A stretch of DNA of 64,000 nt from Deltaproteobacteria bacterium (GTDB lineage Bacteria; UBA10199; JADFYH01): contig JADFYH010000002.1 in assembly GCA_015233135.1 (NCBI GenBank), positions 43,102 to 107,101 on the forward strand, given 5' to 3'. Under the pieces are notes generated by a model. That model did not search any database and had not been told where the DNA came from. It saw only the letters and a program-made list of their open reading frames with translations. Of the stretch, positions 8,501 through 38,221 are shown one piece after another (positions within the stretch are counted from its first letter, which is position 1; each line of letters begins with the position of its first letter). The translations under genes were made by a program, and so were the position numbers.

Positions 8501-10428
8501 ACCGTCAAACGATGTTCTGCCTCGGCTGAAGTGAGACGACTAATTTCCTGGATGAATAAATCTTTTTCCGCATTCAAGGCTTCCGCTGTATCTGCCCCTT
8601 CGGAAGCAAGGATCCCGACTTGATGATTGAGTGCAACATCGAGCACACGCAGCAGAGTGGCCGATCTCAGGCTGGCACGCTGGCTATTGACCTGGGTTTG
8701 CAGTTCGTGAGCCAGTTGATTTTCGGGATGCTGCAGCACCATGGCCTCTAGTCGGGACGAAATTTGATCCAGCCGATCTGCCGTGAGCTCATGGGTTTCC
8801 ATCCGAAGCACAGGAAGCACTTGAGCGAGCTCTGTGAGACCGCGTTGCTCTTCGGCACCAAGCCTTGCCCTGCCACGATTTCCGGCCGCGGCACAAAGTG
8901 CTCCGAGACTATCCAAGGCCTGTAAGGCTTCGCTATTCATTCCAACGCGGGTATAAATTTGGGCCAGTTCACGATAAAGCCGGGCATTCGCCAAATTGGG
9001 AGTTTTGTTCGCCAGCTGTTCCGAGACCCTTGCACCCAATTCCCGAACGGCGTCTTGAAGTCCAAAAGAAGCGAGGATCTGCAGGGCCTGTGAGGCATTC
9101 TGAAAACTTTGAGTGGACCAGCAACGACTGCTGTTCGCATTGGGAGCCAGTTGATGAGCGATCAGGGTTTGTCTGAAGAAAGTGTCGGCTGAGATGCTAT
9201 CGAGCTGACTGAGACGTTCTTGCCTTTGAGCCTCCGTCCCCGAAGAAAGATAAGCCTCAAAATCGTTCACCGCTTGCTCCGACAAACGGCCGTAGGCCTG
9301 GCGCGAAAGCCCGGAAAATTCTCTACGAAAAAGATCTCGACCCACAGACGTTTGGGCATAATTTCGAATGAGAGTTCTTAAAATTTCTTGTCCCTGTGCA
9401 GAGAGTGAAGCCCGTGAAAGCGATAAGGTTCGAAGCGCTTCCACACTGGCACTGTGACCAGAATGTTGGATGGTGTGTAAGGCAATGGCCGCAACCCTTT
9501 GGCGTTGTTGGGTCAGCCGTTCCGTCACTTGCGCGCGACGTTCGGCCAGTTGAGTAGGGTTAAGGTGATTCCGTGCCCAGTTTCCAATCGACAAAACCGT
9601 GTGAGCCGTGGCGGTGGCCATCTCATGGGCTAAATCACTGATACTTTTTTCATGATTTGGAGTTTGAGTTTCGCTGAGGTTGCGAGCCGTCAAAAAATCG
9701 ATGTCGGCCAAATAATTATTTTCCAGGCTCTCCCGCAGGGTTTCATTGTGAGCAACAAATTGATCGACCTGTAAAAAAGCGAGAGCAGTTTCGGCGGAAA
9801 CCGAAAAAAGAGAAGCCGCAGAATAAAGCTCCGCGCGCAAATGCAGCAGCTGGCCTATCACCTGCGCTTGCAGTTCTTGGGGCGCAGTCGCCGCATGAGC
9901 CAGAAATTGGGTGGCTGCCATCAGCTCCTGAGCCCGTTCGGTCACATCGTGAGAGGGATGCGACAGAACTTGAGTGATCCGCTCAAAACCACTTTGCAAA
10001 ATGCCTTGGGCATAAGAGGTGCCTTCAAGCGCGGCAGCCAATTGGCGTCTAAGCTGCAGCTGTTGTGGCACAGCCAGGCTTCGACTCTCTTCCGAAAAAC
10101 CTTGAAGGATTTCCGTAATTTTTGTTTCATCTCCCAATTCAACCAAACTGGGGAGAAGCATCAAAAGGGCTTCCTGCCTATCTCTGCCCTGAAGATTTTG
10201 GTGAATGAAATGGAGGCGGTCCCGAGTAAACTCTCTCAAGTTTTCCTGTTCGCCCGAGGAAGCGAATCTTCTGGCCACAATAGCGGCCGGTACTGTTGTT
10301 GCCGGCAACAAGGGAACCACACTTAAATTTCGTGGGGGGGAACCAGGCTCTCCTCCAGAAGAAGTCGCATTGACAGAACTTTCCGGGAGTGAAAAAGGAG
10401 AAACAGCAGGAAGAATTCGAATAGCCAT
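2509..10428 (-). CDS. Giant (2639 aa) multi-domain membrane protein with an embedded phosphatidylserine decarboxylase-like domain (encoded at about 4650-5320).
   Basis: Single uninterrupted 7.9-kb ORF. Central hydrophobic multi-TM stretch. PSD hallmark motifs occur in canonical order and spacing: FNDFFTR, YLSPKDYHQ, and the G-S of YRWGSHNTLVFE at the position of the LGST self-cleavage site. Intervening similarity to E. coli Psd (IPGVLQTVD vs VPGDLFSVN). Confidence 0.8.
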   Translation of the reverse strand: MAIRILPAVSPFSLPESSVNATSSGGEPGSPPRNLSVVPLLPATTVPAAIVARRFASSGEQENLREFTRDRLHFIHQNLQGRDRQEALLMLLPSLVELGDETKITEILQGFSEESRSLAVPQQLQLRRQLAAALEGTSYAQGILQSGFERITQVLSHPSHDVTERAQELMAATQFLAHAATAPQELQAQVIGQLLHLRAELYSAASLFSVSAETALAFLQVDQFVAHNETLRESLENNYLADIDFLTARNLSETQTPNHEKSISDLAHEMATATAHTVLSIGNWARNHLNPTQLAERRAQVTERLTQQRQRVAAIALHTIQHSGHSASVEALRTLSLSRASLSAQGQEILRTLIRNYAQTSVGRDLFRREFSGLSRQAYGRLSEQAVNDFEAYLSSGTEAQRQERLSQLDSISADTFFRQTLIAHQLAPNANSSRCWSTQSFQNASQALQILASFGLQDAVRELGARVSEQLANKTPNLANARLYRELAQIYTRVGMNSEALQALDSLGALCAAAGNRGRARLGAEEQRGLTELAQVLPVLRMETHELTADRLDQISSRLEAMVLQHPENQLAHELQTQVNSQRASLRSATLLRVLDVALNHQVGILASEGADTAEALNAEKDLFIQEISRLTSAEAEHRLTVAQAMQTLLGSATETRFTHLREFFEHSAEAPAFNIEASVNHLLGNEDRASATSIGQLVLNFINANSVAGLSAVQVNANLEAFTLELSHSRFNAAQVSLSLCSLLQENGAPADQVSGLQDLLRHRAQMNGVLSSASEMLPIHGEASVWSNASFLLPFMFGGLFSARIGASLGGRLLCTLAMKAGEAAVFVGLETALGAAQAYRQSRHDPAHHRLAFQNWRHENLGAYHLSKKYLSNLVMFLACHGHGELFGSRIIKPLRSGAVRLIDSSAFSALAQRGLVHSAEAGLGSANFVGSTLLGFLTADKAQEAVGLREHEETASWGTWLAGKAIEAGQMDLAGRITGHLPVLGPLKHRWEAIHHMKETLPRYGNLFERLRLDPLSADGGRILAVLHGIEQGNVPAYRQNLQLDIHAALSPEEVGQILRERVALIDEVYSREMGNLPLTTFSLDERTRIIAEALEYQARGHSLENLIEQSHNFHLSEEERSRFLSRSMNGGIPAQYFAQMHAYLQNFSGTEAREIFNRFAKSLVSGSASFVLRATQIRRLEGFVELLNALDVLHAQASHPARLGVAHRESVRVPSKADLLRMALRERLSATQARDLSARHQRDEVRVAFDGDAVHFVETVFPSPRGEATSGAEEGSVQLDANPISNSDAVNPNSEALTSSALQAPSPQGEGKSNFPLPLRERVRERGASAGQFLKQSLVSVASVVGVFGFTHLIQPAEAQAQELHPVVAETTSALTHFLQNAGHFLLASTPGHLVTLALVGGIAHLVNRRRLDRRKGNADWTPEQRESQSKWNKIEAGIHTGLTMLSTSAGLGGIIGLVPSLLSGFIHPFTKGSYRKFGYAALLLGVSSIATKTLVLGESLVSQVPHLLTLGAGLAVGVYRHLWTERRLENTALLSEWNHPGVKGPQDYMPTHPELQSVDGYRHTVNGESRLKVDDSTWQQDSLSRATEEHMLGDEHTGQFYEAVQYDAQDAWPREFVRLGDVKDPKSRLFLAANHFYNEKLDAPALTAALEQLCSTVPISRIYDEVRDAFPGLLSQMWGEKALHSLRAILVKKFKIEHDERFNWKGIRTFNDFFTRALKLPEGGLPVHLGQAHHDGVLDWVARGENLLDTGVRLAGKAPVTEAKPNGDAFLKLREGLGESTAAKFAGRSLTAMAIYLSPKDYHQTLTPVSGEIESVELIPGVLQTVDPALRLENAVENLDGREGTQFQSKNHRVVITIKTPRHGRVAMVCTSAALVSSSRVFPKVGQKVNVGELIHEYRWGSHNTLVFETEHFALAHDLVPGNEVYVRGTEPRHPDGNLKNPNGITELFAPREALRLGVDETYDPAVPLSAERISSVFILREASPKELPGLFAAAKAEINQIEASPPIVEGWNHYQSVYHCLRLLSRSLTLPEQALTALFRELAVKVENPETFHELEKLEGTELEVACSQLRAEVYAKLNASGAGYRFAVEGEKDPYPHADLLDGLAEHLIRHRIREEAAKAAQAATSERGGVLKALPAILALGASALLRAGDGEAHPLQFVALHSASFGEKLLTYGLPAALALGLLALVGPRLRAHQARMRQFEAGQVALAKIYEDAARMARCIARGEIECHAFVDFPALGELPTTQALGNPFEHLGEGVHRKIYLDIERQKLTYESKSGYRPAIEIWRESGTIFVQGLEGKVYHFNVIEPGKTLAGANPAELVRVQNPDGSVEFKRHFQFSVKVGPADITFDVGPSFSSKQGAGVPQRISDMPAPAVATSDRISLNPLSSARRRAEAFEMQLPLAVPTVEALPELPPLDPSFEFERDPKKNYVMAEPPPEALRGKRTIFNPHNGEYVEADERVTMMAAAERSRNSTQLEDCEPTELVERGGDGMPVVRSLTGSKGKALLIALSVASSLASERLLHYAAETFPSLAAAGAHFLHGADGVQEAGLPLALVGVAVFLVQRGGKGVLSRMGVRFKAAHPSEKLLTGIFQSAGRGVNAGDEIPAVIPRMNRHKVLQFQPPPLFDN
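6431..6500. repeat. REP-like GC-rich palindromic element (ccctctccc...gggagaggg family) inserted in frame within the giant ORF.
   Basis: cccctctccctgaccctctccctcaaggggagaggg followed by ttccttccccttgaggggaagg. Same family as copies at 15511, 16597, 33283, 35166 and 41954. Encodes PLPLRERVRERG in the protein. Confidence 0.6.
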
Positions 10429-19125: not shown

Positions 19126-20403
19126 GTGATGAATATCATCAATTTCAATCAGATCTTGATGGGAAGAGCTTATACAGCCACCTTTCCAAACCTCTGCACA
19201 AATTCAATTTCAAATGAGCTGAGTCCAAATTATGCTCAGATCCTTTCTAGAAACTTTGCCAGAAGCTTTACCAAACGCCTTGAAAATCTTTTACAAAGTG
19301 GACAAGCACAGCCTTCCTCTGCTGCCACACAAAACCAAGTGACTCAAGGAGTTCAAGGTATTCAAGGAGAACAAGGCTTTGTCGCCCAGGTCAACAACGA
19401 GCTGCAGCAGCAAATTTATACCCCAAATGTGGAAGAGCAAAAAAAGTTGAATGACATCAATGCCGACCGGGCCAAAGACGGCAAGCCTCCCATCAATTTT
19501 CAGCAAGTCACCCGTGAAATTGAAAACATCATGAATGATCCCAACCTGGATGAAGGGAAGAAAAAGGATCTCGTTGGAAAAATAAAGGATCGTTTGGGCC
19601 TTGGGAAAGGCGATATGAAGTTTTTATTTACCAAGCGCTTGGCAAAACTTCATGAACAAGCAGCTGATAAATTAAATACCCGTTTAGAAAGTTTGGAAAA
19701 AAATGCAAAAGAGATGGAAAGACTCTACGGCAAGAATAGTCCTCAAGCCTTGCAAGCCAATCAGGCCCTGGAAACCTCCAAAAGTGTTTTAGAACCCCAA
19801 AAACAGCAATGGGAGGCCAAGGCAAACTCTTACAGTAAAATGTTCCCTAGTTTTTGGAGTAAACTGGGAGGGGCATTTAAAAAAGTGGTCTCTGCTGTCA
19901 CCAAAGTGGTCAATGCAGTCGCGCCCATTTTAAAGATGATCCCCGGCATTGGAACGATTGCTTCCCTAGGTTTGGCGGCCATCAACGGGCTCAACAGTAT
20001 CGTCCATGGAGATTGGAAAGGTTTTCTGAAAAATGTGGCCTCAAATCTCGCAAGCGCTGTTCCTGCCTTGGGATCTGCAGTTCAGATGGGCATGAATGCC
20101 TTCAACACCGTAAAATCCTTTGCAAAAGGGAATATCATGGGGGGCCTCGGCGGGCTCATGAATTTCACTGGGGCACTCCCTGAAAAAGTGGGGGACATTC
20201 TCAACAAAGGCTGGTCTGCCTTTGGAAGCATTTACTCGGCGGCCAAAGGAAATTTTATGCCCCTCTTCAATACGGCCCTCAACTTTGCTCCTCAAATTCC
20301 TGGTGTTCAAAAGCTGCAAGAGACTTGGAATAATCTCCAGCAAAAAATACCTGTCCCGCTTAACCAAGGAATACAATGGCTTTCGAGTTGCTTTCCCTTC
20401 TAA
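19126..20403 (+). CDS. Hypothetical secreted/translocator-like protein: Q-rich coiled-coil N-terminal half and a C-terminal Gly/Ala-rich bilobed hydrophobic domain.
   Basis: Good SD (aaaaagggggaagtgATG). No homology recognised. Hydrophobic hairpin VTKVVNAVAPILKMIPGIGTIASLGLAAINGL. Confidence 0.65.
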   Translation: MMNIINFNQILMGRAYTATFPNLCTNSISNELSPNYAQILSRNFARSFTKRLENLLQSGQAQPSSAATQNQVTQGVQGIQGEQGFVAQVNNELQQQIYTPNVEEQKKLNDINADRAKDGKPPINFQQVTREIENIMNDPNLDEGKKKDLVGKIKDRLGLGKGDMKFLFTKRLAKLHEQAADKLNTRLESLEKNAKEMERLYGKNSPQALQANQALETSKSVLEPQKQQWEAKANSYSKMFPSFWSKLGGAFKKVVSAVTKVVNAVAPILKMIPGIGTIASLGLAAINGLNSIVHGDWKGFLKNVASNLASAVPALGSAVQMGMNAFNTVKSFAKGNIMGGLGGLMNFTGALPEKVGDILNKGWSAFGSIYSAAKGNFMPLFNTALNFAPQIPGVQKLQETWNNLQQKIPVPLNQGIQWLSSCFPF

Positions 20404-20490: not shown

Positions 20491-20681
20491 GTTTCATTTT
20501 CAAACCCCAAAAACACTCAAGCGTCCGAAATTCGAACTGGAAAAAAACGACTTAAAGAACATCAAAATATAACCCACTAAAAAGACAAAGTTTTTTTTCA
20601 AAAAAAACACAGGACGAGTTGGCATCTTCTTGGCATTTACAAGAAAGCGTAAACATCAACAAATTTAAAAAGGAGCCTAAA

Positions 20682-22457
20682 ATGATTTCATTAGCCAACC
20701 GAGACGGAAGCCAAAACCTCTACAACGATTTAAGTTCAGGCGAGGCCATTCAAGAATTGAAAGACAAACACGACTTTTCAACCAAGATGCTGCATCCTCT
20801 GATTAGTGGAGAAGAAATGATGCAGACTATCTTTAAGGGGATTAGCGATTCCGACAACCATGCCGCTAGCAGCGAATACATCGACCTTAAAAAGTTTACG
20901 ACAGACAACAACTACAGAATGACCCCCGAAGCTAGAAACGAATTCAACATTTATGAACGTTATGTACGGAATGCTCAATCTCAGGGCAGAACAGGACTCA
21001 ATCCCTTTGAAATGAAAGGCATGTACATGGAGATGAAAAATGCAAATGTGAATTTCACAACTCCAGCTTCTTTTGATAGCCCTGCTTTCAACCAGATTGC
21101 AGGAAGCACACTCCCTCAATACAACGTCATCGGCATGAATACTCCCATTGTTCCCAGTAATAATGGTTATGTGCCTTCTTTTCCTGGAACAAATTTTGTG
21201 GGACAAACTCCCAGCTGGGCTCCCACGGCAGGAATCGCTGCCAATGAAACGGCCAAGGTATGGGGTGACCCTCATTTTGTAGATCCCGATGGTGGACACT
21301 TTGATGTTCAGGGTGAAGCCGGAAAAACCTACAACATGCTGGACGATAACAATTTGAATTTTAATGCCCGTTTTGATGATGCCGGCAAGGGCACAACGGT
21401 GATTGGACAAACAGGGATTACCTTGCAAGGCTGGCGTGGCACTTCCCAGATTCAATTTTCAAAAGAAGGAACAGCTTCGATCAATGGGCAAATCCTCCAA
21501 CCCGGTGCTATGGAAACTCTGGCAGATGGAGGTCATGCCCTTCTCTCTGAAGATGGAAAAACACTCACCCTCAAAACAGGTGAAGGCTATACCATCACCC
21601 AACGTTTAGTGGATGGACGCATTGATGCTGACGTTAAAAGTCCTGCTGAAGGCATAGACACAGATGGCCGTATGCCTGGAGGTTTACTAGGTCAAACTTT
21701 TGATGCGGATAATGTGGCCCGTAATTCCAGTGGGCATCAAGGAGAAGGAGCTATCGCGGGAACAGTCGGTGACTACGAAGTTCCAGGAGGGGTATTTGGA
21801 TTTGCAAATTCAAACAACATTGCCAGCTATCCTAATCTGGTCAATCCTTACCCCCCCACCTATTCGAATTTTCCTGTGGCAAGCGCTCAAGCGCCTATGA
21901 GCATACCCACTTATACCCCTGCCTTCACAGCCTCTTCTTTGGCCTCTGTGATTCCCCAAGTTATGCCTCAAGCCATCCCTCAAAGCGATCAAAGTCTGGA
22001 TTTTATGCTTTCTCAAACTCAACGCGGTGAACAACAGGCAAGCCTCAACGACAGCAATAGTCAGACAGATAAAATCTTGCAGCAGCTTCTGGTCGCACTG
22101 AAAACTGGAAACATCGATGTAGCAATGCTGCTTTTCTCCGACTTAGAAAGCAAACAATCCACTCAAATGACCGGCATGCTCACTCAACAATTAGTGCAAC
22201 TCCAACAATCACGTAAACAAATGATGATGCAAATGAATCAGAATCAAAACCAGACAGCAGGTCAAAATGGAGTAAATCCACAATCTAACACCGCAGCACT
22301 TCAAGCAAATGTTCAAGAAGTAAATGACAGTATTCAAATGTTGACCAGCTTTATTAAAGATATCAGCGAACAGAAAAATCGTGTGGCAGAATTTGCAAAC
22401 AACTATCTTTCCACTGAACATCAGACCAGCATGGACATCGTTCGGGGAATGAGATAA
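20682..22457 (+). CDS. Protein with a VWD-like domain (GDPH motif) and a Q/N-rich low-complexity C-terminus. Start taken at MISLANRDG, which has a good SD.
   Basis: WGDPHFVDPDGGHFDVQGEAGKTYNML matches the VWD N-terminal signature GDPHYxTFDGxxYxFxGxCxYxL. The C-terminal GGLLGQTFDADNV matches the VWD GLCGNFNGxxxDDF signature. SD aaaaaggagcctaaaATG. Confidence 0.7.
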   Translation: MISLANRDGSQNLYNDLSSGEAIQELKDKHDFSTKMLHPLISGEEMMQTIFKGISDSDNHAASSEYIDLKKFTTDNNYRMTPEARNEFNIYERYVRNAQSQGRTGLNPFEMKGMYMEMKNANVNFTTPASFDSPAFNQIAGSTLPQYNVIGMNTPIVPSNNGYVPSFPGTNFVGQTPSWAPTAGIAANETAKVWGDPHFVDPDGGHFDVQGEAGKTYNMLDDNNLNFNARFDDAGKGTTVIGQTGITLQGWRGTSQIQFSKEGTASINGQILQPGAMETLADGGHALLSEDGKTLTLKTGEGYTITQRLVDGRIDADVKSPAEGIDTDGRMPGGLLGQTFDADNVARNSSGHQGEGAIAGTVGDYEVPGGVFGFANSNNIASYPNLVNPYPPTYSNFPVASAQAPMSIPTYTPAFTASSLASVIPQVMPQAIPQSDQSLDFMLSQTQRGEQQASLNDSNSQTDKILQQLLVALKTGNIDVAMLLFSDLESKQSTQMTGMLTQQLVQLQQSRKQMMMQMNQNQNQTAGQNGVNPQSNTAALQANVQEVNDSIQMLTSFIKDISEQKNRVAEFANNYLSTEHQTSMDIVRGMR

Positions 22458-22480
22458 CATAAGAGGAGATATAAAAAAAG

Positions 22481-22519
22481 AAGGCCTTCCGCTCTCGAAC
22501 TCGGAAGGCCTTCTTTTTT
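22481..22519 (+). terminator. Rho-independent terminator.
   Basis: gaaggccttccgctctcgaactcggaaggccttc stem-loop followed by an 8-nt T-run. Confidence 0.7.
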
Positions 22520-22597
22520 TTGGAGAAGAAAACTAGTTTTGACAAGCATCACTTCTTTTTGCTACAAACTCAAACCGCATTCAACCTAGGAGAAAAT

Positions 22598-22810
22598 ATG
22601 GCTCGCGTAACCGTAGAAGACTGTTTAGAAAATGTTGATAACCGTTTTGGTTTAGTTCACCTGACCGCCCGTCGCGTCAGACAAATTGTAAAAGGCTCCG
22701 AAGTTCTCGTTGACTGTGACAACAAAGATATCGTCACGGCCTTACGCGAAATAGCGGAAGGATATGTACGAGTAGACTCGGACACCCTTCCTCAAAACAT
22801 CGACGAATAG
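22598..22810 (+). CDS. rpoZ: DNA-directed RNA polymerase subunit omega.
   Basis: [30 protein letters not shown] is the canonical RpoZ N-terminus. SD ggagaaaatATG. Confidence 0.85.
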
Positions 22811-22812
22811 AC

Positions 22813-23028
22813 CTAGTCCGTAAGGGTGTTGGTATGGGAAGTCAGCCAATTTTCTAAATACTGCTGCTGAATCCTCCATTGCCCACCCACCTTAAAAGCA
22901 GGAAGATTTTTGCTTTTGATCAACCTATAGATGGTCATCTCATGCAAACTTAGCCTATTGGCCACTTCCTTAATGCTTAGGAACTCTTTCCGACTTTGGT
23001 CCACTACAAAATCCGCCATCTTATCCAT
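22813..23028 (-). CDS. Excisionase-family / AlpA-like helix-turn-helix DNA-binding protein.
   Basis: LSIKEVANRLSLHEMTIYRLIKSKNLPAFKVGGQWRI is the HTH_17 / excisionase-type motif. Small (about 72 aa). Confidence 0.55.
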   Translation of the reverse strand: MDKMADFVVDQSRKEFLSIKEVANRLSLHEMTIYRLIKSKNLPAFKVGGQWRIQQQYLENWLTSHTNTLTD

Positions 23029-23470
23029 AAAGAACCTCCCTTGTGTACCCTGTTTATGAAGCAAGAGATATACCAATTTTAGCCATTTTTGCGTTTTCTA
23101 CTAAAATCAATATATTTTAAATAGTTACACATCTTAATCGGACTGTACTTTCCAAACATTTTTTGAATAAAAGGCATTTTTTACCCACATTGCTGACATT
23201 TTTTTGACTCGAGCCCACTTCCCTGGACAAACAAGACTATTCTCTCCCGGCCCCTCTGAAGAGGGGTGATTATTTTTTACCTCCCCTCTTTTTGACAGGG
23301 AAGAAAATGCGAGAGCATTTTCGGGAGTTCACATTATTCAACGCATTCCATTTTTCCTACACTCGTTCGATTCCCATACGCTCCATTTTTTCACAAATTC
23401 AATAACCCCTCATTTTTCATCAACTCTTTCTTTTCAGCAAACAAGCACAGTTCCTGCTTTGTAACTAAGC

Positions 23471-24475
23471 ATGGAAACTCAACTCTCTTTTAAAGACCGT
23501 GCCAAGCAAGCCTTCTATTTTTATGCCGGGATAGGGCAAGGAGTTGTAGACACCGCCAAAGGCCTAGCCAAGCTCTCTCTGCTCCCCGCCACACAAGGCT
23601 TGGATGCCTTGGGAAAAGCGGCCGATTTTATTTCTCATCCTCAAGAAAAAGCAGAAGCCGCTTATCAGGAAGCAAAGCAGGGGTACAAGGATCTGCAAAG
23701 GCTTTGGAGTCAGCCCAAAGAAGAGATTTCAAAAGGGACAGAAAAACTGGGCAACGCTGTTCAGCACGAGTGGAACGAATTCACAAAGCCTTTTGAAAGT
23801 AGTGACCCCAATGTGAGGGCCAAGGCTTGGGGCGAGACAACTTTTAACGTTGCGTCCTTATTTTATGGTGCGGGGGAATTGAAAGGTGCAAGCGTTGCCA
23901 CAAAAGAACTTTCTGTCTTTAGCAAGGCAGAAATTGCGGAATCGAAAATTGTTTCTCAATTAGCAGAAACGGGCGCTGAGATCGCCTCACCTTCTTCAGC
24001 TGCAAGCAGCACCTTACAAGCTTCAGTTCAGTTGTATGAAAGAATTCCAGCGGGTTTTAACAACAGCAAAGAATTTGAAGAATTTGGAAATCTTTTTAGA
24101 GAAGGCCTCCAAAAAAGTGCTGACCCTGAAGCAATTGGAGTGTTAAGAGGGAGTTCGGTCACTGGGGTGAAACATAAAAATGGTTTACCCTTTGATACGG
24201 GAAAGAGGAGTGATTTGGATTTGACGGTGGTGAGTCCGAAGTTGCTCAAAAGGGCTGAGGAAATGGGAGTGAAATTGAGGGAGGGGAAAACTAGGACTGG
24301 GCCTTTGGATCCAGATTTTTTTAGACAAAAACAAATTCTAAAAAAATTAAACCTATTTGACAGCATTCAATCATTGCGAAGCTTTTCTAATAGAGATGTA
24401 AGCCTTATGATATACGACAGTGAAGCTTCCGTTGCAGGCAGAGGCGAGTATATAAAATTTGGAGATAAGAAATGA
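23471..24475 (+). CDS. Putative polymorphic-toxin-like protein: N-terminal pre-toxin (PT-TG-like) Gly-rich region plus a C-terminal nucleotidyltransferase-fold motif.
   Basis: N-terminus AGIGQGVVDTAKGLAKLSLLPATQGLDALGKAADF. C-terminus LRGSSVTGVKHKNGLPFDTGKRSDLDLTVV fits the GS...DxD minimal NTase signature. Overlaps the downstream small ORF by 4 nt (ATGA). Confidence 0.45.
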   Translation: METQLSFKDRAKQAFYFYAGIGQGVVDTAKGLAKLSLLPATQGLDALGKAADFISHPQEKAEAAYQEAKQGYKDLQRLWSQPKEEISKGTEKLGNAVQHEWNEFTKPFESSDPNVRAKAWGETTFNVASLFYGAGELKGASVATKELSVFSKAEIAESKIVSQLAETGAEIASPSSAASSTLQASVQLYERIPAGFNNSKEFEEFGNLFREGLQKSADPEAIGVLRGSSVTGVKHKNGLPFDTGKRSDLDLTVVSPKLLKRAEEMGVKLREGKTRTGPLDPDFFRQKQILKKLNLFDSIQSLRSFSNRDVSLMIYDSEASVAGRGEYIKFGDKK

Positions 24476-24795
24476 AAAATTCTCTGGTCTACGGTCACAA
24501 CTCGAAAGATCAAGTTGAAGTAAAACAAATGCTAGAGCCCATTTTAGACCTTCAATTTGCGGAACACGAAACAGCGGATGAACAACCTTATTACTTTGCT
24601 GGTCAAATTTCGGGAGAGAGATTTTGCATTTATCTTAATTATAATGACTCTGATAATTACTGGAACTATCCCGAACATCAACAATATAAAATACTGTTAT
24701 TAATTAATGAAACTACTCGAGCAGTACCCCTCCAAAAAATGCTCGCCGAAAAAATCCCTGAGCTCGTTTTGTTGGAAGTTTATGAAGAGTGTTGA
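24472..24795 (+). CDS. Small acidic hypothetical protein, candidate cognate immunity protein.
   Basis: 107 aa. Start overlaps the toxin stop. No homology recognised. Confidence 0.4.
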   Translation: MKNSLVYGHNSKDQVEVKQMLEPILDLQFAEHETADEQPYYFAGQISGERFCIYLNYNDSDNYWNYPEHQQYKILLLINETTRAVPLQKMLAEKIPELVLLEVYEEC

Positions 24796-24946
24796 ATATT
24801 TCATCCTCGATTTTTACGCTCCCTCTCTTCGCTTGGGGATTGAATTGGAAAATATAGCACTCCGTCCCCGGGTGGACGAAGCTATCTTCAAACAAAAATA
24901 AAATCTAACTTATTGATTTTTAACGAGATATATACAGATTGAATTA

Positions 24947-24981
24947 GGGAACCGCTGCCCTATCCCCTGAGCTACGGAGGC
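24947..24981 (-). pseudogene. tRNA 5'-half fragment (acceptor plus D-arm like, GCCTCCGTAGCTCAGGGGATAGGGCA), no intact cloverleaf.
   Basis: Read on the minus strand. Matches the canonical tRNA 5' end (GCxxCCGTAGCTCAG..GGATAGAGC) but lacks anticodon and T arms. Confidence 0.3.
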
Positions 24982-24989
24982 GAAAATAA

Positions 24990-25508
24990 TTAGGCGTACT
25001 GCAGGAGAGAAAAAATTTCTTTTCCTTTCAAATTATCCCTTCCCTTTAAAAAGCCCAACTCAATGACAAAGGCCACCTCTAAAAGCTTGCCCCCCATTTT
25101 TTGAATGAGCTCGCAAGACGCATTGGCGGTGCCCCCTGTGGCGAGCACGTCATCCATTAACAATACCTGGTCACCAGGTAAAATCGAATCTTTATGAATT
25201 TCAATATGATCTTTTCCATATTCTAAAGAATAGCCTTGCTTGATGGTTTCTGCCGGAAGTTTTCCATTTTTGCGGATGAGCACCACGCCGGTGTTCAGGG
25301 CATAGGCCAAAGCCGAGGCGAAGATGAATCCTCGAGACTCCACACCCACAATCGCCTTCAGTTTTTGATTTTTATAGCGCTCTACAAAAGAATCAATCAC
25401 TTGCTTGAAGGCCTCTGCATTTGCCAGCAGCGGGGTGATATCTTTAAAGAGGATCCCTGGTTTTGGGAAGTTAGGAACGTCGCGAATAATTTTCTTTAAA
25501 TCGATCAT
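24990..25508 (-). CDS. apt: Adenine phosphoribosyltransferase.
   Basis: MIDLKKIIRDVPNFPKPGILFKDITPLL...VLLMDDVLATGGTA PRTase motif. The ORF-track N-terminal extension was rejected. Confidence 0.9.
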   Translation of the reverse strand: MIDLKKIIRDVPNFPKPGILFKDITPLLANAEAFKQVIDSFVERYKNQKLKAIVGVESRGFIFASALAYALNTGVVLIRKNGKLPAETIKQGYSLEYGKDHIEIHKDSILPGDQVLLMDDVLATGGTANASCELIQKMGGKLLEVAFVIELGFLKGRDNLKGKEIFSLLQYA

Positions 25509-27612: not shown

Positions 27613-27643
27613 TAATCGGGGCGACTGGATTTGAACCAGCGAC
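27613..27643 (-). repeat. 31-bp direct repeat duplicating the 3' end (T-arm plus acceptor) of tRNA-Pro. Truncated tRNA copy or att-like scar.
   Basis: taatcggggcgactggatttgaaccagcgac is identical at 27613-27643 and 27726-27756. The upstream part cannot form D and anticodon arms. Confidence 0.6.
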
Positions 27644-27728
27644 GGTTTTCACAGGGGCTCGCGTCGCCCCTCACTCGGCAAAGCCTCGTGAGCCTCCCCT
27701 CTCGCTCACCTTGTTCGCTATTTACTAA

Positions 27729-27804
<76 letters not shown>

Positions 27805-36450: not shown

Positions 36451-37446
36451 TCATTTGTTTTTATTTTTTTGCACACTCATTGATTTCCAATGAAGCAAGG
36501 GATGAGTTTGTATCAACTGAATCAGCGTTTGATTCTCTGTTAATAACTCAGGCCGAATTTCTCCGTGGTCAAGTATTGCATTTAGAAATTCGATTTCCAG
36601 TTCAGTGAGAGGCAATACAATCTCGAGTTTTGTTCGACATTCTTTAATTAGGCGTTCTATCCAGGAATTTACTTCTTCTTTCGGCAAAAAACCGTTTCTG
36701 AGAACGGGGATGAGCTGATTTTTAAGTTCATGTACGTTGTAGTCGAGATCATCGGTAGAAATTTTTCTCCAATCGCGTCGGTTCATAGCGCCATATAAAA
36801 CAAAACCCAAACGAAGTTTATCCCTTTGAAGATTGCCTTGGGTAAGAAGCAAATGAGCATCAAAGAGATCACGACTTGCTTGACGTGCAAGTAAGGCGGC
36901 AAGCTTACCTGCCGCCAGCTCATGTAAATCAAGCACCGGGATTTTCTTGCTTGAATAAGAACAGACTCGTTTGGATTCCAGTAAAAGAGGAGACCACAAG
37001 GGAACGCGAAATACAAAATTGAGATCTACTTCTATATTACCACCCTCTCCCAACGAACTGTCGTATTGCAATCGCCATTTTCCACCTGCATGCTCAGTGG
37101 GTTGTCGGGTAACACGCATCCCCTCGCGGGAACAAACTGCTTGCACTGCCTGTTCGATCTTAGGGCGTTCAGCAAGCATTACTTCGCGACTGGAGCCTCC
37201 AATATAATTCAGATCAATATCCACAGACAAACGAGGTAAGTCGAAGAAAAAAAGATTGAGTGCGGTTCCACCCTTGAGAACAAAGCGATTTTTAAGAAAA
37301 GGATGACTTTGAAAGCCATCGAGAAGATTCAGCAAATGGATGACCTTTTCCAAAATTTCAGGTCTAAATCCTGTGGCTTGAGATTCAGTAATCAATTTTT
37401 CTTTAGAGATTTTTATAGGATTCCTCCTCCCAACTGCGCTCGACAA
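36451..37446 (-). CDS. abiEii: AbiEii/AbiGii-family nucleotidyltransferase toxin (DUF1814).
   Basis: FVLKGGTALNLFFFDLPRLSVDIDLNY is the NTase motif of the AbiEii family. Confidence 0.8.
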   Translation of the reverse strand: MSSAVGRRNPIKISKEKLITESQATGFRPEILEKVIHLLNLLDGFQSHPFLKNRFVLKGGTALNLFFFDLPRLSVDIDLNYIGGSSREVMLAERPKIEQAVQAVCSREGMRVTRQPTEHAGGKWRLQYDSSLGEGGNIEVDLNFVFRVPLWSPLLLESKRVCSYSSKKIPVLDLHELAAGKLAALLARQASRDLFDAHLLLTQGNLQRDKLRLGFVLYGAMNRRDWRKISTDDLDYNVHELKNQLIPVLRNGFLPKEEVNSWIERLIKECRTKLEIVLPLTELEIEFLNAILDHGEIRPELLTENQTLIQLIQTHPLLHWKSMSVQKNKNK

Positions 37447-38221
37447 GACTCAGTGGAACTATGAGATTCCATTTACTGATCAGTTTACTTTTTTTGTTTC
37501 GTTTCAGATAGGTTGGCTGCTTTGGACAAAATTTTTGAAGCCTTCGCAAGTATTTATCCTCTACCATCAATGTTTCCCGATGTTGTTCCAGAAAGTATCC
37601 CACCTTGGCAATAGTTGTAGCGTTGCCTAGTAGCAATGCATATTCAATTACCAATTCGAGATCAAAATATTCTACAGATTCTAAGGAACGCCAGATTTCT
37701 TCCCAGCCACCCCCCAGCTGAGGTCGATCGAGCACATCCACAAGCGTTCGCTCGAGACTTGTCACATGAATTTCAAGCCCCAAGCGTTCTTCTGTCTTTA
37801 CGCCAAATAATTCTTTATTCTTTTTAACTAAACTTTTTGGAAATGAAAGCCCTACAAAATGACAGCCACGAAATACAGTAGGGTGCACAATCTTACTTGT
37901 TTGATAGTAATAATGATTGAAAACCGAATAAGCCTTGGCATAAAATTCCAAGGCCGTGTGATACGCAAGCACTGCGTCTTCTTTCATCTTAGCCGTTAGC
38001 AGGTAGGGATCAACCGAGTAATTTTTTGGATCTGCTCCCAAAGGCACACTGGCATACAGACCTCGGCGTATAGATAAAATGTGCCCTTGCTTACAATGAT
38101 GTGCAAGCAAGGCCTTTCGCGTCCATCCGCTAGTCACCCCATTCTGCTGCTGCCAAGTAGCAAATTCAGTGCTAGTAAAAACAGGATGCTTCTCTAAAAA
38201 ATTCGTGACCTTCATAAACAA
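37403..38221 (-). CDS. abiEi: AbiEi-family antitoxin / transcriptional regulator (type IV TA).
   Basis: N-terminal wHTH region. Same-strand overlap with abiEii in the canonical order. Likely TTG/ATG start near 38213-38221. Confidence 0.7.
   Translation of the reverse strand: MFMKVTNFLEKHPVFTSTEFATWQQQNGVTSGWTRKALLAHHCKQGHILSIRRGLYASVPLGADPKNYSVDPYLLTAKMKEDAVLAYHTALEFYAKAYSVFNHYYYQTSKIVHPTVFRGCHFVGLSFPKSLVKKNKELFGVKTEERLGLEIHVTSLERTLVDVLDRPQLGGGWEEIWRSLESVEYFDLELVIEYALLLGNATTIAKVGYFLEQHRETLMVEDKYLRRLQKFCPKQPTYLKRNKKSKLISKWNLIVPLSLVERSWEEESYKNL

What the first reader, a model, noticed from the sequence alone, without database searches (positions are those of the whole stretch)
22813..24990. 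Toxin/immunity-like pair with PT-TG-like and nucleotidyltransferase motifs, beside an excisionase-like gene and a tRNA fragment
The 334-aa protein (23471-24475) has a Gly-rich N-terminus resembling pre-toxin TG domains of polymorphic toxins. Its C-terminal GS...SDLDL motif is typical of minimal nucleotidyltransferase-fold toxins. Its stop overlaps the start of a 107-aa acidic ORF, a typical immunity gene arrangement. The block is bordered by an AlpA/excisionase-type HTH gene (22813-23028, divergent) and a tRNA 5'-half remnant (24947-24981). Together these suggest a decayed integrative islet carrying a toxin cassette.
Basis: inference. Interest (0 to 1): 0.6.

Follow-up and report, generated by a model that had tools for sequence, protein, structure and literature searches.

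The report
Polymorphic toxin cassette beside broken tRNA
Two overlapping genes between rpoZ and apt encode a modular bacterial toxin, whose killing domain looks like a small nucleotidyltransferase, and its acidic antidote protein; this kind of system is well known, but this toxin domain and its antidote match no model in the standard family databases.

Summary
The 334-aa ORF (23471-24475), the overlapping 107-aa acidic ORF (24472-24795), the excisionase-type HTH gene and a tRNA stump are all present.

The pair is a polymorphic toxin-immunity cassette:
- Paralogs in the same MAG keep the N-terminal ~140 aa but carry different C-termini; one has the RNase domain Ntox50.
- The C-terminal 147 aa belong to a family of about 1000 cluster representatives.
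- That domain almost always sits at the extreme C-terminus of Rhs, CdiA/DUF637, PT-HINT, WXG100, eCIS and phage-portal proteins.
- Homologs of the 107-aa protein follow the toxin gene in 8 of 9 loci, spanning Pseudomonas, Phyllobacterium, Streptomyces and Deinococcus.
- Neither family matches any Pfam, NCBIfam or PADLOC model.

A minimal Pol-beta nucleotidyltransferase fold is supported by the invariant GS...SDxD motif and by recurrent weak hits, but no match is significant.

The PT-TG claim fails.

The tRNA fragment is the 5' half of tRNA-Arg(CCT), a gene that follows apt in many phyla. It is cut right after the anticodon loop.

A decayed integrative islet is plausible but unproven: there is no integrase, no att repeats and no close relative to compare.

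This is a new variant of a known kind, of moderate interest.

The parts
22595..22810 (+). rpoZ (RNA polymerase omega), the left housekeeping flank. Its stop lies 2 nt from the stop of the HTH gene.
   Evidence: Pfam RNA_pol_Rpb6 1.7e-17. The mechanical ORF starts at 22520; the likely start is MARVTVEDC at 22595.
22813..23028 (-). Small excisionase-family HTH_17 DNA-binding protein (71 aa from the ATG; the ORF extends to 23076 from a TTG). It is divergent from the toxin operon.
   Evidence: HTH_17 3.6e-15; TIGR01764 excisionase family 1.8e-15; phrog_66 6e-12. It is not found next to the cassette in other loci.
23029..23470 (.). 442-nt low-GC (0.378) intergenic region between the divergent HTH and toxin genes. 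It holds promoter-like hexamers and a GC-rich hairpin with a T run at 23250-23267.
   Evidence: These are consensus matches only; function was not tested.
23471..23890 (+). Toxin N-terminal domain (residues 1-140): helical, lineage-specific, and shared by paralogs that carry different C-terminal toxins. Presumed trafficking/pre-toxin module.
   Evidence: 91% identical to P0004 (C-terminus = Ntox50), 69% to P0002, 61% to P0112. No Pfam, NCBIfam, PHROG or PDB match. Absent from genome contigs and metagenome contigs. AF2 pLDDT below 50.
23891..24031 (+). Variable linker (residues 141-187) between the N-terminal domain and the toxin domain. This is where the paralogs diverge.
   Evidence: Alignment A1. 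P0003 and P0004 share a different linker and diverge from each other right after ...ETLLSKIN.
24032..24472 (+). C-terminal toxin domain (residues 188-334): basic, alpha/beta, with the invariant motif G227-S228...D242...S247-D248-x-D250...R275...R308...R324. It resembles a minimal Pol-beta-type nucleotidyltransferase.
   Evidence: 987 representatives at E<=1e-3. The domain ends within 5 residues of the C-terminus in 136 of 149 proteins. It is fused to RHS, PT-HINT, DUF637, eCIS_core, WXG100 and Phage_portal. AF2 pLDDT 94.8. Motif conservation. Weak nucleotidyltransferase signals.
24472..24795 (+). Cognate immunity protein (107 aa, pI 4.5), translationally coupled to the toxin gene by an ATGA overlap.
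   Evidence: Homologs lie directly downstream of toxin homologs in L001, L002, L003, L004, L085, L088 and L089. The profile hits nothing else among 8434 ORF segments. No Pfam, PADLOC, PHROG or PDB match.
24859..24882 (-). Terminator-like hairpin plus T run on the minus strand, downstream of apt and the tRNA stump. It faces the 3' end of the cassette.
   Evidence: 9 pairs, 5 G-C. Consensus match only.
24944..24981 (-). 5' half of a tRNA-Arg(CCT) gene (acceptor 5' strand, D arm, 5' strand of the anticodon stem, anticodon loop TCCCTAA). It is truncated right after the loop, and position 33 is C instead of U.
   Evidence: Best alignments are all to tRNA-Arg(CCT): score 26 against a random maximum of 11. 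apt-tRNA-Arg(CCT) synteny in 16 of 76 loci. Not called by ARAGORN or Rfam. No second copy of the loop/stem core in the window beyond chance.
24990..25508 (-). apt (adenine phosphoribosyltransferase), the right housekeeping flank and last gene of a surE-pcm-M23-apt string.
   Evidence: Pfam Pribosyltran 2.5e-16. Neighbours. The surE/M23/apt order is kept in L010, L041 and L044, and M23-apt in L065.

Best explanation
The block is a two-gene polymorphic toxin-immunity cassette.

The 334-aa protein has three parts:
- A lineage-specific helical N-terminal domain (about 140 aa). At least three paralogs in the same genome share it, and it presumably directs export or delivery. This role is inferred.
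- A variable linker.
- A basic 147-aa C-terminal toxin domain.

The toxin domain belongs to a large, widely distributed family without a database name. Members cap Rhs, CdiA, PT-HINT, WXG100/T7SS, eCIS and phage-portal proteins.

Its invariant G-S...S-D-x-D motif, its predicted alpha-beta-[GS]-alpha-beta[DxD]-alpha core, and recurrent weak matches to NTP_transf_2, Pol-beta and minimal nucleotidyltransferase (MNT) proteins point to a divergent minimal Pol-beta-type nucleotidyltransferase. The most likely action is Mg-NTP-dependent nucleotidylation of an essential target in the recipient cell (a tRNA or other RNA 3' end, or a protein), or NTP consumption. This is inferred.

The translationally coupled 107-aa acidic protein is the cognate immunity protein. 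It most likely binds the basic toxin domain 1:1 and blocks its active site in the producer. This too is inferred, from conserved gene pairing and charge complementarity.

The toxin-domain-plus-immunity module has lower GC than the N-terminal domain. It occurs in many unrelated contexts elsewhere, so it was probably acquired by recombination.

The cassette and a divergent excisionase-family HTH gene sit between rpoZ and apt. They lie directly against the stump of the tRNA-Arg(CCT) gene that normally follows apt. This fits a former tRNA-targeted insertion of which only cargo remains.
For: Polymorphism within one genome:
- P0004 (HQM15_08685, same MAG) is 91% identical over residues 1-140, but its C-terminus is Pfam Ntox50, 1.5e-24.
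- P0003 (HQM15_08935) and P0002 carry the same C-terminal domain as the window protein.

The C-terminal domain is a toxin module:
- The profile search gave 987 representatives at E<=1e-3 and 235 at E<=1e-30.
- The domain ends within 5 residues of the C-terminus in 136 of 149 proteins.
- Upstream domains are RHS repeats, PT-HINT plus PT-TG, DUF637, eCIS_core and VWA.
- A census of 74 further proteins added Phage_portal x6, PT-HINT x4, WXG100, PPE, PT-VENN and T7SS_signal.
- JGI names many fragments 'filamentous hemagglutinin'.
- On a P. aeruginosa plasmid the domain lies inside an orphan toxin/immunity array.

Immunity:
- The ORF right after the toxin gene is homologous in L001 (41% identity, 3e-25).
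- The same holds in L003 (3.5e-12), L002 (3.9e-8) and L004 (2.3e-4), all, and in L085 (7e-7).
- A profile built from those six hit only the downstream ORFs of Streptomyces L088 (8.9e-11) and Deinococcus L089 (1.1e-7) among 8434 ORF segments.
- Immunity proteins have pI 4.3-4.9; the median toxin-domain pI is 9.4.

Nucleotidyltransferase fold:
- Invariant G227, S228, D248, D250 and R275; R308 99%; D242 97%.
- The AF2 model of the domain has pLDDT 94.8 and pTM 0.88, with GS after strand 1 and DxD on strand 2.
- 9 of 38 family members give sub-threshold NTP_transf_2 hits (best 0.0094). There are also hits to Polbeta, MTPAP palm and DUF294.
- The HMM alignment to the MNT protein AF0614 (1ylq) superposes GS and SDxDxAIVS exactly.
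- Three nucleotidyltransferase-named viral proteins are in the BFVD top 8.
- JGI calls one homolog 'predicted nucleotidyltransferase'.

Acquisition:
- GC is 0.488 in the N-terminal domain, 0.395 in the toxin domain and 0.364 in the immunity gene. The window mean is 0.449, sd 0.043.
- Other loci carry the cassette next to transposases.

tRNA stump.
Against: - No biochemical or toxicity data exist.
- No recognised secretion signal or trafficking domain is present in the window protein. No secretion-system genes were seen among the larger window ORFs scanned.
- No nucleotidyltransferase match is statistically significant. The window domain itself gives no Pfam hit even at E<=10.
- The better structural model has no Foldseek hit in PDB (best E 0.8) or BFVD.
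- The GS-to-DxD spacing (19 residues) is longer than the canonical 9-13.
- No invariant third carboxylate lies on the strand where Pol-beta nucleotidyltransferases usually carry it.
- For the islet part: there is no integrase, no att-type direct repeat and no displaced 3' tRNA half. The remnant is a 5' half, whereas classical tRNA-integrating elements leave an intact tRNA plus a 3' fragment.
- The toxin start codon has no obvious Shine-Dalgarno sequence.
Confidence: 0.75

Rival explanations
1. The pair is not exported. It works inside the producer as a toxin-antitoxin-like addiction or defence module, an 'orphan' toxin-domain/immunity cassette kept for stabilisation or phage defence. The N-terminal domain would then be regulatory rather than a delivery signal.
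For: - The window protein has no signal peptide or known trafficking domain.
- No secretion genes were found among the scanned window ORFs.
- Many homologs are short stand-alone proteins of 130-250 aa, often beside transposases.
- Rhs orphan modules have been reported to behave as type II TA modules (PMC7043789; title and abstract only).
Against: - The same N-terminal domain is reused with an unrelated toxin (Ntox50) in the same genome. This is the signature of delivered polymorphic toxins.
- The toxin domain is attached to Rhs, CdiA, WXG100, eCIS and portal carriers in other organisms.
- PADLOC has no match.
- The gene order, toxin first and small acidic non-DNA-binding partner second, is that of immunity genes.
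Confidence: 0.15
2. The pair is a toxin-immunity cassette, but the C-terminal domain is not a nucleotidyltransferase. The GS/DxD motif would serve another chemistry, for example a metal-dependent nuclease or phosphodiesterase, or a new fold.
For: - The high-confidence model has no significant structural neighbour.
- There is no significant HMM match.
- The motif spacing is unusual and the third carboxylate is missing from the expected strand.
- Several invariant arginines (R275, R308, R324) would also suit nucleic-acid binding.
- Published screens found polymorphic-toxin DNases with new folds (bioRxiv 10.1101/2021.10.19.465003).
Against: - All the weak signals point the same way: 13 of the weak Pfam hits are families of, or annotated as, nucleotidyltransferases.
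- Solved MNT structures appear by both sequence (1ylq) and structure (1no5 and 1wot).
- The motif sits exactly where the nucleotidyltransferase core has it in the predicted topology.
Confidence: 0.3
3. The block is not the remnant of an integrative element. The toxin gene is a resident paralog whose toxin-domain/immunity end was swapped by homologous or illegitimate recombination. The HTH gene is an ordinary local regulator. The tRNA-Arg(CCT) gene decayed independently, which is tolerable because tRNA-Arg(UCU) can read AGG.
For: - There is no integrase, no att repeats and no 3' tRNA fragment.
- The GC drop begins inside the toxin gene at the domain junction, not at the borders of the block.
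- HTH_17 proteins are common stand-alone regulators, and this one is not linked to the cassette elsewhere.
- Classical tRNA integration leaves 3' fragments, not 5' fragments.
Against: - The truncation falls exactly at the 3' edge of the anticodon loop. From my own knowledge, not tested here, this is a known crossover sublocation for tRNA-targeting integrases.
- The foreign-looking genes abut the stump directly.
- The window holds another tRNA-associated scar, a perfect 29-nt repeat of the tRNA-Pro 3' end. This region of the genome has therefore seen tRNA-targeted integration.
- The HTH matches excisionase families best.
Confidence: 0.45

Closest known systems
Polymorphic toxin systems (Rhs, CdiA-CT/CdiI, LXG/WXG, eCIS and MuF/portal-linked toxins; Zhang et al. 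2012, PMC3482391)
   Same: - Modular toxin with a conserved N-terminal part and an exchangeable C-terminal toxin domain.
- An immunity gene lies immediately downstream.
- Paralogs in one genome carry different C-terminal domains.
- The same C-terminal domain is found on Rhs, CdiA, PT-HINT, WXG100, eCIS and portal carriers.
- Orphan toxin-domain/immunity cassettes occur in arrays.
   Different: - The N-terminal domain matches none of the known trafficking domains and has only about six detectable relatives.
- Neither the toxin domain nor the immunity protein matches any of the Pfam Ntox/Tox/Imm models or any NCBIfam model.
- No secretion system was identified.
Minimal nucleotidyltransferases of the Pol-beta superfamily (MNT; e.g. 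HI0073/1no5, AF0614/1ylq, MntA of HEPN-MNT modules; Pfam NTP_transf_2 and Polbeta)
   Same: - The hG-S ... S-D-h-D-h-A-h-h-S motif aligns residue for residue with AF0614.
- The predicted core is alpha-beta-[GS]-alpha-beta[DxD]-alpha.
- The domain is about 140 aa.
   Different: - A 7-residue beta-hairpin insert lies between GS and DxD.
- No conserved third acidic residue lies on the next core strand.
- No match reaches significance.
- In HEPN-MNT pairs the MNT is the antitoxin; here the domain occupies the toxin position, and its partner is a small acidic protein, not a HEPN RNase.
MenT / AbiEii (DUF1814) nucleotidyltransferase toxins of type IV/VII TA systems
   Same: A Pol-beta-fold nucleotidyltransferase used as a growth-arresting toxin. 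From my own knowledge, MenT enzymes add nucleotides to tRNA acceptor ends, which is a plausible model for the target here. The window also carries a true AbiEii gene at 36451-37446.
   Different: - There is no sequence match to AbiEii or DUF1814.
- The domain is much smaller.
- It is neutralised by a small acidic protein rather than by an AbiEi/MenA-type partner.
- It is found as the C-terminal domain of exported carrier proteins.
RelA/SpoT-like polymorphic toxins (e.g. Tas1, a T6SS (p)ppApp synthetase)
   Same: This is the only nucleotidyltransferase-fold toxin class listed for polymorphic toxins in Zhang et al. 2012. They are delivered between bacteria and are neutralised by a downstream immunity protein.
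   Different: There is no RelA_SpoT Pfam match, and the motif set differs: GS/DxD of the MNT type rather than the RSH synthetase motifs.
tRNA-gene-targeted genomic islands with integrase and excisionase
   Same: The cargo (toxin cassette) and an excisionase-family HTH gene lie directly next to a disrupted tRNA gene. The break is at the anticodon loop.
   Different: - There is no integrase and there are no direct repeats.
- The tRNA is destroyed rather than regenerated.
- The block is only 2.1 kb.

Membership tests
Polymorphic toxin system | The C-terminal toxin domain recurs at the extreme C-terminus of proteins with diverse N-terminal carrier or trafficking modules. | tested here: met
   In 136 of 149 homologs the domain ends within 5 residues of the C-terminus. 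Carriers include RHS, PT-HINT, DUF637, PT-VENN, WXG100, eCIS_core and Phage_portal.
Polymorphic toxin system | Paralogs or alleles share the N-terminal region but carry unrelated C-terminal toxin domains. | tested here: met
   P0004 from the same MAG is 91% identical over residues 1-140, and its C-terminus is Ntox50, 1.5e-24.
Polymorphic toxin system | The cognate immunity gene lies immediately downstream and is conserved as a pair with the toxin domain. | tested here: met
   A homologous small acidic ORF follows the toxin gene in 8 of 9 loci across four or more phyla. The window pair has an ATGA overlap.
Polymorphic toxin system | A recognisable secretion or trafficking determinant (signal peptide, PAAR, VgrG, LXG/WXG, TPS, MuF and so on) is in the toxin or encoded nearby. 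| tested here: not met
   Residues 1-187 have no Pfam, NCBIfam or PHROG match. The scanned neighbours are housekeeping genes. The N-terminal domain may be an undescribed determinant.
Polymorphic toxin system | The toxin domain is toxic and is neutralised specifically by the immunity protein. | not testable with these tools
   This needs expression and co-expression experiments.
Pol-beta-type minimal nucleotidyltransferase (NTP_transf_2 / MNT) | An hG[GS] motif after strand 1 and Dh[DE]h on strand 2. | tested here: met
   G227-S228 and D248-L-D250 are invariant in 139 sequences. They sit after E35-39 and on E62-67 of the pLDDT 94.8 model. The spacing is 19 residues instead of 9-13.
Pol-beta-type minimal nucleotidyltransferase (NTP_transf_2 / MNT) | A third catalytic carboxylate on the following core strand. 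| tested here: inconclusive
   There is no invariant Asp or Glu on strand 310-315 (consensus V-x-F-M-I-Y). The only other near-invariant acid is D242 (97%), in the inserted hairpin.
Pol-beta-type minimal nucleotidyltransferase (NTP_transf_2 / MNT) | A significant profile match to a nucleotidyltransferase family. | tested here: not met
   The window domain has no Pfam hit at E<=10. 9 of 38 relatives hit NTP_transf_2 only below threshold, best E 0.0094. The PDB HMM search gives 1ylq at E 0.57.
Pol-beta-type minimal nucleotidyltransferase (NTP_transf_2 / MNT) | Structural superposition on solved nucleotidyltransferases. | tested here: inconclusive
PT-TG pre-toxin domain (PF14449) | A match to the PT-TG profile or its conserved loop motif. 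| tested here: not met
   There is no PF14449 hit in P0001-P0004 at E<=1 or in P0010 and P0112 at E<=0.1. The model does detect PT-TG in the unrelated carrier P0105.
tRNA-targeted integrative island | Located at a tRNA gene. | tested here: met
   The stump of tRNA-Arg(CCT) at 24944-24981 abuts the block.
tRNA-targeted integrative island | An integrase gene and flanking att direct repeats. | tested here: not met
   Between 22811 and 24990, searches identify only the HTH, toxin and immunity genes as plausible coding ORFs, and none matches an integrase family. There are no flanking repeats above chance and no 3' tRNA fragment.
tRNA-targeted integrative island | Absent from the same site in close relatives. 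| not testable with these tools
   The nearest apt loci are only 49-58% identical. None has rpoZ, the HTH, the toxin or the immunity gene nearby. Lineage-specific queries found no usable contig.

The most novel reading that the evidence does not exclude
The C-terminal domain founds a large, unnamed class of interbacterial toxins that are minimal Pol-beta nucleotidyltransferases. They would be delivered by Rhs/T6SS, CdiA/T5SS, WXG100/T7SS, eCIS and phage-portal carriers. They would kill by nucleotidylating an essential RNA or protein, which is MenT-like chemistry used as an exported weapon. A dedicated family of ~105-aa acidic immunity proteins would block them. In this deep-branching lineage the domain rides on a new N-terminal delivery domain.
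Probability: 0.4. Interest if true: 0.7.

Novelty: new variant of a known kind. Interest (0 to 1): 0.5.

Why it matters
Polymorphic toxins are a main source of new antibacterial enzymology. In the survey consulted, the only nucleotidyltransferase-fold class listed among their C-terminal toxin domains is the RelA/SpoT type (PMC3482391).

This locus leads to a toxin domain with about 1000 cluster representatives across Pseudomonadota, Actinomycetota, Deinococcota, Bacteroidota and uncultured lineages. That domain travels with its own conserved immunity family, and neither family matches any Pfam, NCBIfam or PADLOC model. If the MNT-like chemistry is confirmed, it would link intracellular nucleotidyltransferase toxins (MenT, AbiEii) with exported interbacterial weapons. 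It would also give annotators two new families.

For this genome itself the finding is ordinary biology: a small acquired weapon cassette in a housekeeping region. It comes with a clean example of a tRNA gene cut at the anticodon loop.

Tried and rejected
Family and structure searches that found nothing:
- Pfam, NCBIfam, PADLOC and PHROG scans of the toxin and immunity proteins gave no family.
- phmmer and hmmsearch against PDB sequences gave nothing significant for the toxin, the N-terminal domain or the immunity protein.
- Foldseek of the high-confidence domain model against PDB and BFVD gave nothing significant.

tRNA and boundary checks:
- ARAGORN, including relaxed and intron modes, and Rfam, including a stretch cut at the fragment end, do not call the tRNA stump. 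The only ARAGORN call in intron mode was a spurious tRNA-Gln on the opposite strand, which I rejected.
- Searches for att-like direct repeats and a displaced tRNA 3' half found nothing above chance.
- I considered that the hairpin at 24859-24882 plus 'CGGAGTGC' might be the missing T arm and acceptor of a split tRNA. I rejected this because the loop is not a T loop and ARAGORN gives no support.

Searches for paralog loci and relatives:
- Exact-protein look-ups for the paralog loci P0003, P0004 and P0001 were not on record.
- Alignment A1 was too divergent for the search for related loci.
- The N-terminal-domain scans of genome contigs and metagenome contigs returned no relatives.
- The apt scan returned only distant genomes.
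- The ORF612 scan returned one 1.3-kb contig.

Mobile-element collections:
- tblastn of the toxin domain found one plasmid hit and no phage hit.

Literature:
- Searches found no description of an MNT-like polymorphic toxin domain in the held library.

Full report
**1. What is in the sequence**

- A 334-aa ORF lies at 23471-24475 (+).
- A 107-aa ORF at 24472-24795 (+) starts inside the toxin's stop codon (ATGA). A GGAG lies 7-10 nt upstream of its ATG.
- A 71-aa ORF at 22813-23028 (-) runs divergently from the pair, across a 442-nt intergenic region.

rpoZ ends at 22810, 2 nt from the stop of the small minus-strand ORF. apt (24990-25508, minus) closes the other side. Beyond apt lie an M23 peptidase gene, pcm, surE, tRNA-Pro, a MerR gene, pheT, pheS and thrS. 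Upstream of rpoZ are two orphan proteins and then ordinary metabolic genes. The block is therefore a 2.1-kb insert-like unit in a housekeeping neighbourhood.

**2. The small minus-strand gene**

It is an HTH_17 / excisionase-family DNA-binding protein.
- Pfam HTH_17: 3.6e-15.
- NCBIfam TIGR01764 'excisionase family': 1.8e-15.
- phrog_66 'excisionase and transcriptional regulator': 6e-12.
- The AlpA model scores only E 0.096.

This fold family also includes many plain regulators. The gene is not found next to the cassette in any other locus examined.

**3. The 334-aa protein is a polymorphic toxin**

No Pfam, NCBIfam or PADLOC model matches it. A search of 5.8 billion proteins found six sequences including the query itself.
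- Three of the five relatives share the N-terminal region.
- Two (P0005, P0006) share only the last ~145 residues, behind unrelated N-termini.
- P0004 comes from the same MAG (locus tag HQM15_08685; the window protein is HQM15_01050). It is 91% identical over residues 1-140, but its C-terminus is Pfam Ntox50 at 1.5e-24. Ntox50 is a predicted BECR-fold RNase toxin of polymorphic toxin systems (PMC3482391).
- P0003 (HQM15_08935) shares P0004's linker and switches to the window-type C-terminus right after '...ETLLSKIN'.

One conserved head with exchangeable toxic tails in one genome is the defining behaviour of polymorphic toxins.

**4. The C-terminal domain is a widespread, unnamed toxin module**

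A profile search of 1.84 billion cluster representatives found 987 proteins at E<=1e-3 and 235 at E<=1e-30. Almost all match only profile positions ~190-334.

In 136 of 149 listed proteins the domain ends within five residues of the C-terminus. N-terminal extensions range from 0 to 3619 residues.

The upstream parts are classic toxin carriers.
- RHS repeats, PT-HINT plus PT-TG, DUF637 (CdiA/hemagglutinin), eCIS core and VWA/TSP3.
- In a census of 74 further members: Phage_portal (6), PT-HINT (4), DUF637, RHS, WXG100, PPE, PT-VENN and T7SS_signal.

JGI names many fragments 'filamentous hemagglutinin' and one 'predicted nucleotidyltransferase'.

On a P. aeruginosa plasmid, an unannotated copy lies in an array of orphan toxin/immunity cassettes. 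Its neighbours are glutamine deamidase + YrhB, an endonuclease + a hypothetical protein, and transposases. No phage record carries the domain.

None of these proteins has a Pfam domain over this region.

**5. The 107-aa protein is the cognate immunity protein**

It has no family match and only itself in the big database. The ORF directly after the toxin homolog is nevertheless homologous in locus after locus.

| Locus | Source | Result |
|---|---|---|
| L001 | another MAG | 41% identity, 3e-25 |
| L003 | ENA metagenome | 3.5e-12 |
| L002 | Pseudomonas asplenii | 3.9e-8 |
| L004 | Phyllobacterium | 2.3e-4 |
| L085 | P. aeruginosa plasmid | 7e-7 |

I built a profile from these six proteins (the window protein and the five above) and searched 8434 ORF segments from all fetched loci. 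Apart from the six training sequences, it hit only the ORFs right after the toxin in Streptomyces (L088, 8.9e-11) and Deinococcus (L089, 1.1e-7). There were no false positives. Only the Cytophagaceae Rhs-linked copy (L087) has an undetected, possibly different, partner.

The immunity proteins are acidic (pI 4.3-4.9). The toxin domain is basic (window 9.45, family median 9.4).

The genomic contexts are otherwise unrelated, so the pair moves as a unit.

**6. What the toxin domain probably does**

*Conservation.* Across 139 domains the invariant or near-invariant residues are G227, S228, V230-T231-G232, F241-D242, S247-D248-x-D250, R275-T276, R308 and R324. All are intact in the window protein.

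*Structure prediction.* AlphaFold2 with a 38-sequence alignment gives a confident model, pLDDT 94.8 and pTM 0.88. Its order is helix, strand, GS, short helix, inserted hairpin, strand carrying DxD, helix. That is the core order of Pol-beta-type nucleotidyltransferases as I know it; this comparison rests on my own knowledge.

*Independent weak signals.* They all point the same way.
- 9 of 38 members hit NTP_transf_2 (best E 0.0094). Others hit Polbeta, the MTPAP palm and DUF294.
- The profile aligns to the solved minimal nucleotidyltransferase AF0614 (1ylq), with GS on GS and SDxDxAIVS on SDIDVAIVS. The family differs by a 7-residue insert (E 0.57).
- The first, poorer model had the minimal nucleotidyltransferase HI0073 (1no5) as its Foldseek top hit, with probability 0.84.
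- Three nucleotidyltransferase-named viral proteins are in the BFVD top eight.

*Caveats.* None of these signals is significant on its own.
- The better model finds nothing in PDB below E 0.8.
- The GS-DxD spacing is long.
- No third carboxylate sits on the expected strand.

I therefore rate 'divergent minimal nucleotidyltransferase' at about 0.6. The specific chemistry (nucleotidylation of an RNA 3' end or a protein, or NTP consumption) is inference by analogy with MenT/AbiEii and RelA/SpoT-type toxins.

**7. The N-terminal domain**

Residues 1-140 are helical and poorly modelled.
- They match no family or structure.
- Detectable relatives are only the three proteins sharing the head (P0002-P0004), P0112 (a 131-aa N-terminal-domain-only protein) and the more distant P0010.
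- Neither the GTDB representative genomes nor the JGI metagenomes contain the domain.
- The PT-TG model (PF14449) does not match, at E<=1 for P0001-P0004 and E<=0.1 for P0010 and P0112.
- The region is not Gly-rich.

Its reuse with two different toxins argues that it is a delivery or pre-toxin module. The export route is unknown, and no secretion genes were seen in the window.

**8. The tRNA fragment**

ARAGORN and Rfam do not call it. The minus-strand sequence GCCTCCG-TA-GCTC-AGGGGATA-GGGC-A-GCGGT-TCCCTAA (24981 to 24944) nevertheless aligns best to tRNA-Arg(CCT) genes. Its score is 26, against a maximum of 11 for 200 random window 38-mers.

In the 80 apt loci fetched for synteny, 76 had enough downstream sequence. 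In 16 of those 76, from many phyla, tRNA-Arg(CCT) lies on the same strand within 1.5 kb downstream of apt, mostly at 10-125 nt. In the window the fragment starts 9 nt after the apt stop.

So this is the stump of the ancestral apt-linked tRNA-Arg(CCT). Similarity stops exactly after the anticodon loop (...CCTAA | TTCAATC), and position 33 is C.

**9. Is it an integrative islet?**

In favour:
- The tRNA is cut at the anticodon loop, with foreign-looking genes abutting it.
- An excisionase-family gene lies at the other border.
- The toxin domain and immunity gene have low GC (0.395 and 0.364, GC3 0.35 and 0.32). The window mean is 0.449 (sd 0.043), and the N-terminal domain is 0.488.
- The cassette is mobile elsewhere.
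- A separate att-like scar lies nearby: a perfect 29-nt repeat of the tRNA-Pro 3' end, 84 nt downstream of that gene.

Against:
- There is no integrase, no flanking repeats and no displaced 3' half.
- The tRNA is destroyed rather than regenerated.
- The GC step lies inside the toxin gene, which fits toxin-domain/immunity replacement by recombination equally well.

The decisive synteny test failed for lack of relatives.
- The best apt matches are 49-58% identical.
- Some keep surE-M23-apt.
- None has rpoZ, the HTH, the toxin or the immunity gene nearby.
- A lineage-specific query found only a 1.3-kb contig.

I rate the islet reading at about 0.4-0.5.

**10. Comparison with what is known, and novelty**

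The system works like, and passes three of the four computationally testable criteria for, a polymorphic toxin-immunity system. It lacks a recognised trafficking determinant.

Pfam, NCBIfam, PADLOC and PHROGs have no model that matches the toxin domain or its immunity partner. The papers I could search do not describe an MNT-like polymorphic toxin domain. Zhang et al. 2012 list only RelA/SpoT-type nucleotidyltransferases among such toxins.

New polymorphic toxin domains are, however, reported in batches, so this is a new variant of a known kind rather than a new category.

| Claim | Confidence |
|---|---|
| Toxin-immunity cassette of the polymorphic type | ~0.9 |
| Nucleotidyltransferase fold | ~0.6 |
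| Exported rather than purely intracellular | ~0.7 |
| Remnant of a tRNA-targeted element | ~0.45 |

Noticed in passing
window 27615-27643 (-) and tRNA-Pro gene 27728-27803 (-): A perfect 29-nt direct repeat of the 3' end of tRNA-Pro(GGG) (GTCGCTGGTTCAAATCCAGTCGCCCCGAT) lies 84 nt downstream of the gene. It overlaps the mechanical 5' extension of the surE ORF. It looks like an att scar left by an excised or deleted tRNA-targeted element.
   Followed up: partly
L017, L021, L024, L026, L033, L040, L043, L050, L056, L066, L068-L071, L076, L077 (just downstream of apt): tRNA-Arg(CCT) lies on the same strand within 1.5 kb downstream of apt, mostly at 10-125 nt, in 16 of 76 loci. The loci come from Acidobacteriota, Elusimicrobia, Omnitrophota, Clostridia and others. 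This apt-tRNA-Arg(CCT) linkage across phyla is what identified the stump in the window.
   Followed up: yes
window 36451-37446 (-) and 37403-38221 (-): The first ORF is an AbiEii nucleotidyltransferase toxin (Pfam 3e-32). The overlapping upstream ORF may be its AbiEi partner, but that ORF was not scanned. This would be a second, unrelated nucleotidyltransferase toxin module in the same window.
   Followed up: no
window 19126-20403 (+) and 20619-22457 (+): Two large orphan proteins (425 and 612 aa) have Q/N-rich, low-complexity stretches and no family match. The second contains 'WGDPHFVDPDGGHFDVQGEAGKTYNML', which resembles a GDPH-type autoprocessing motif. Only one 1.3-kb JGI contig (L086) encodes a relative.
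   Followed up: partly
window 22473-22520: A perfect 19-bp inverted repeat (AAAAAAAGAAGGCCTTCCG / CGGAAGGCCTTCTTTTTTT) with a 10-nt loop lies between ORF612 and rpoZ. It is flanked by A and T runs, so it is a strong bidirectional terminator-like hairpin. It produced the spurious Rfam leader and miRNA hits.
   Followed up: no
window 2509-10428 (-): A giant 2639-aa ORF has only one recognisable domain, a phosphatidylserine decarboxylase-like segment at residues 1780-1933.
   Followed up: no
L001 3373-5037: In the other MAG, a PhdYeFM/YafQ TA pair follows directly after the toxin-immunity pair. After that comes an overlapping 253-aa + 109-aa gene pair (3950-4711 / 4708-5037) with no family match, possibly another toxin/immunity cassette.
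   Followed up: partly
P0008-P0152 set; L085 5001-5381: Six proteins fuse a phage portal domain to this toxin domain, suggesting toxin delivery linked to phages or phage-like particles. In P. aeruginosa plasmid NZ_CP116719, the copy of the toxin domain is not annotated as a gene at all.
   Followed up: no
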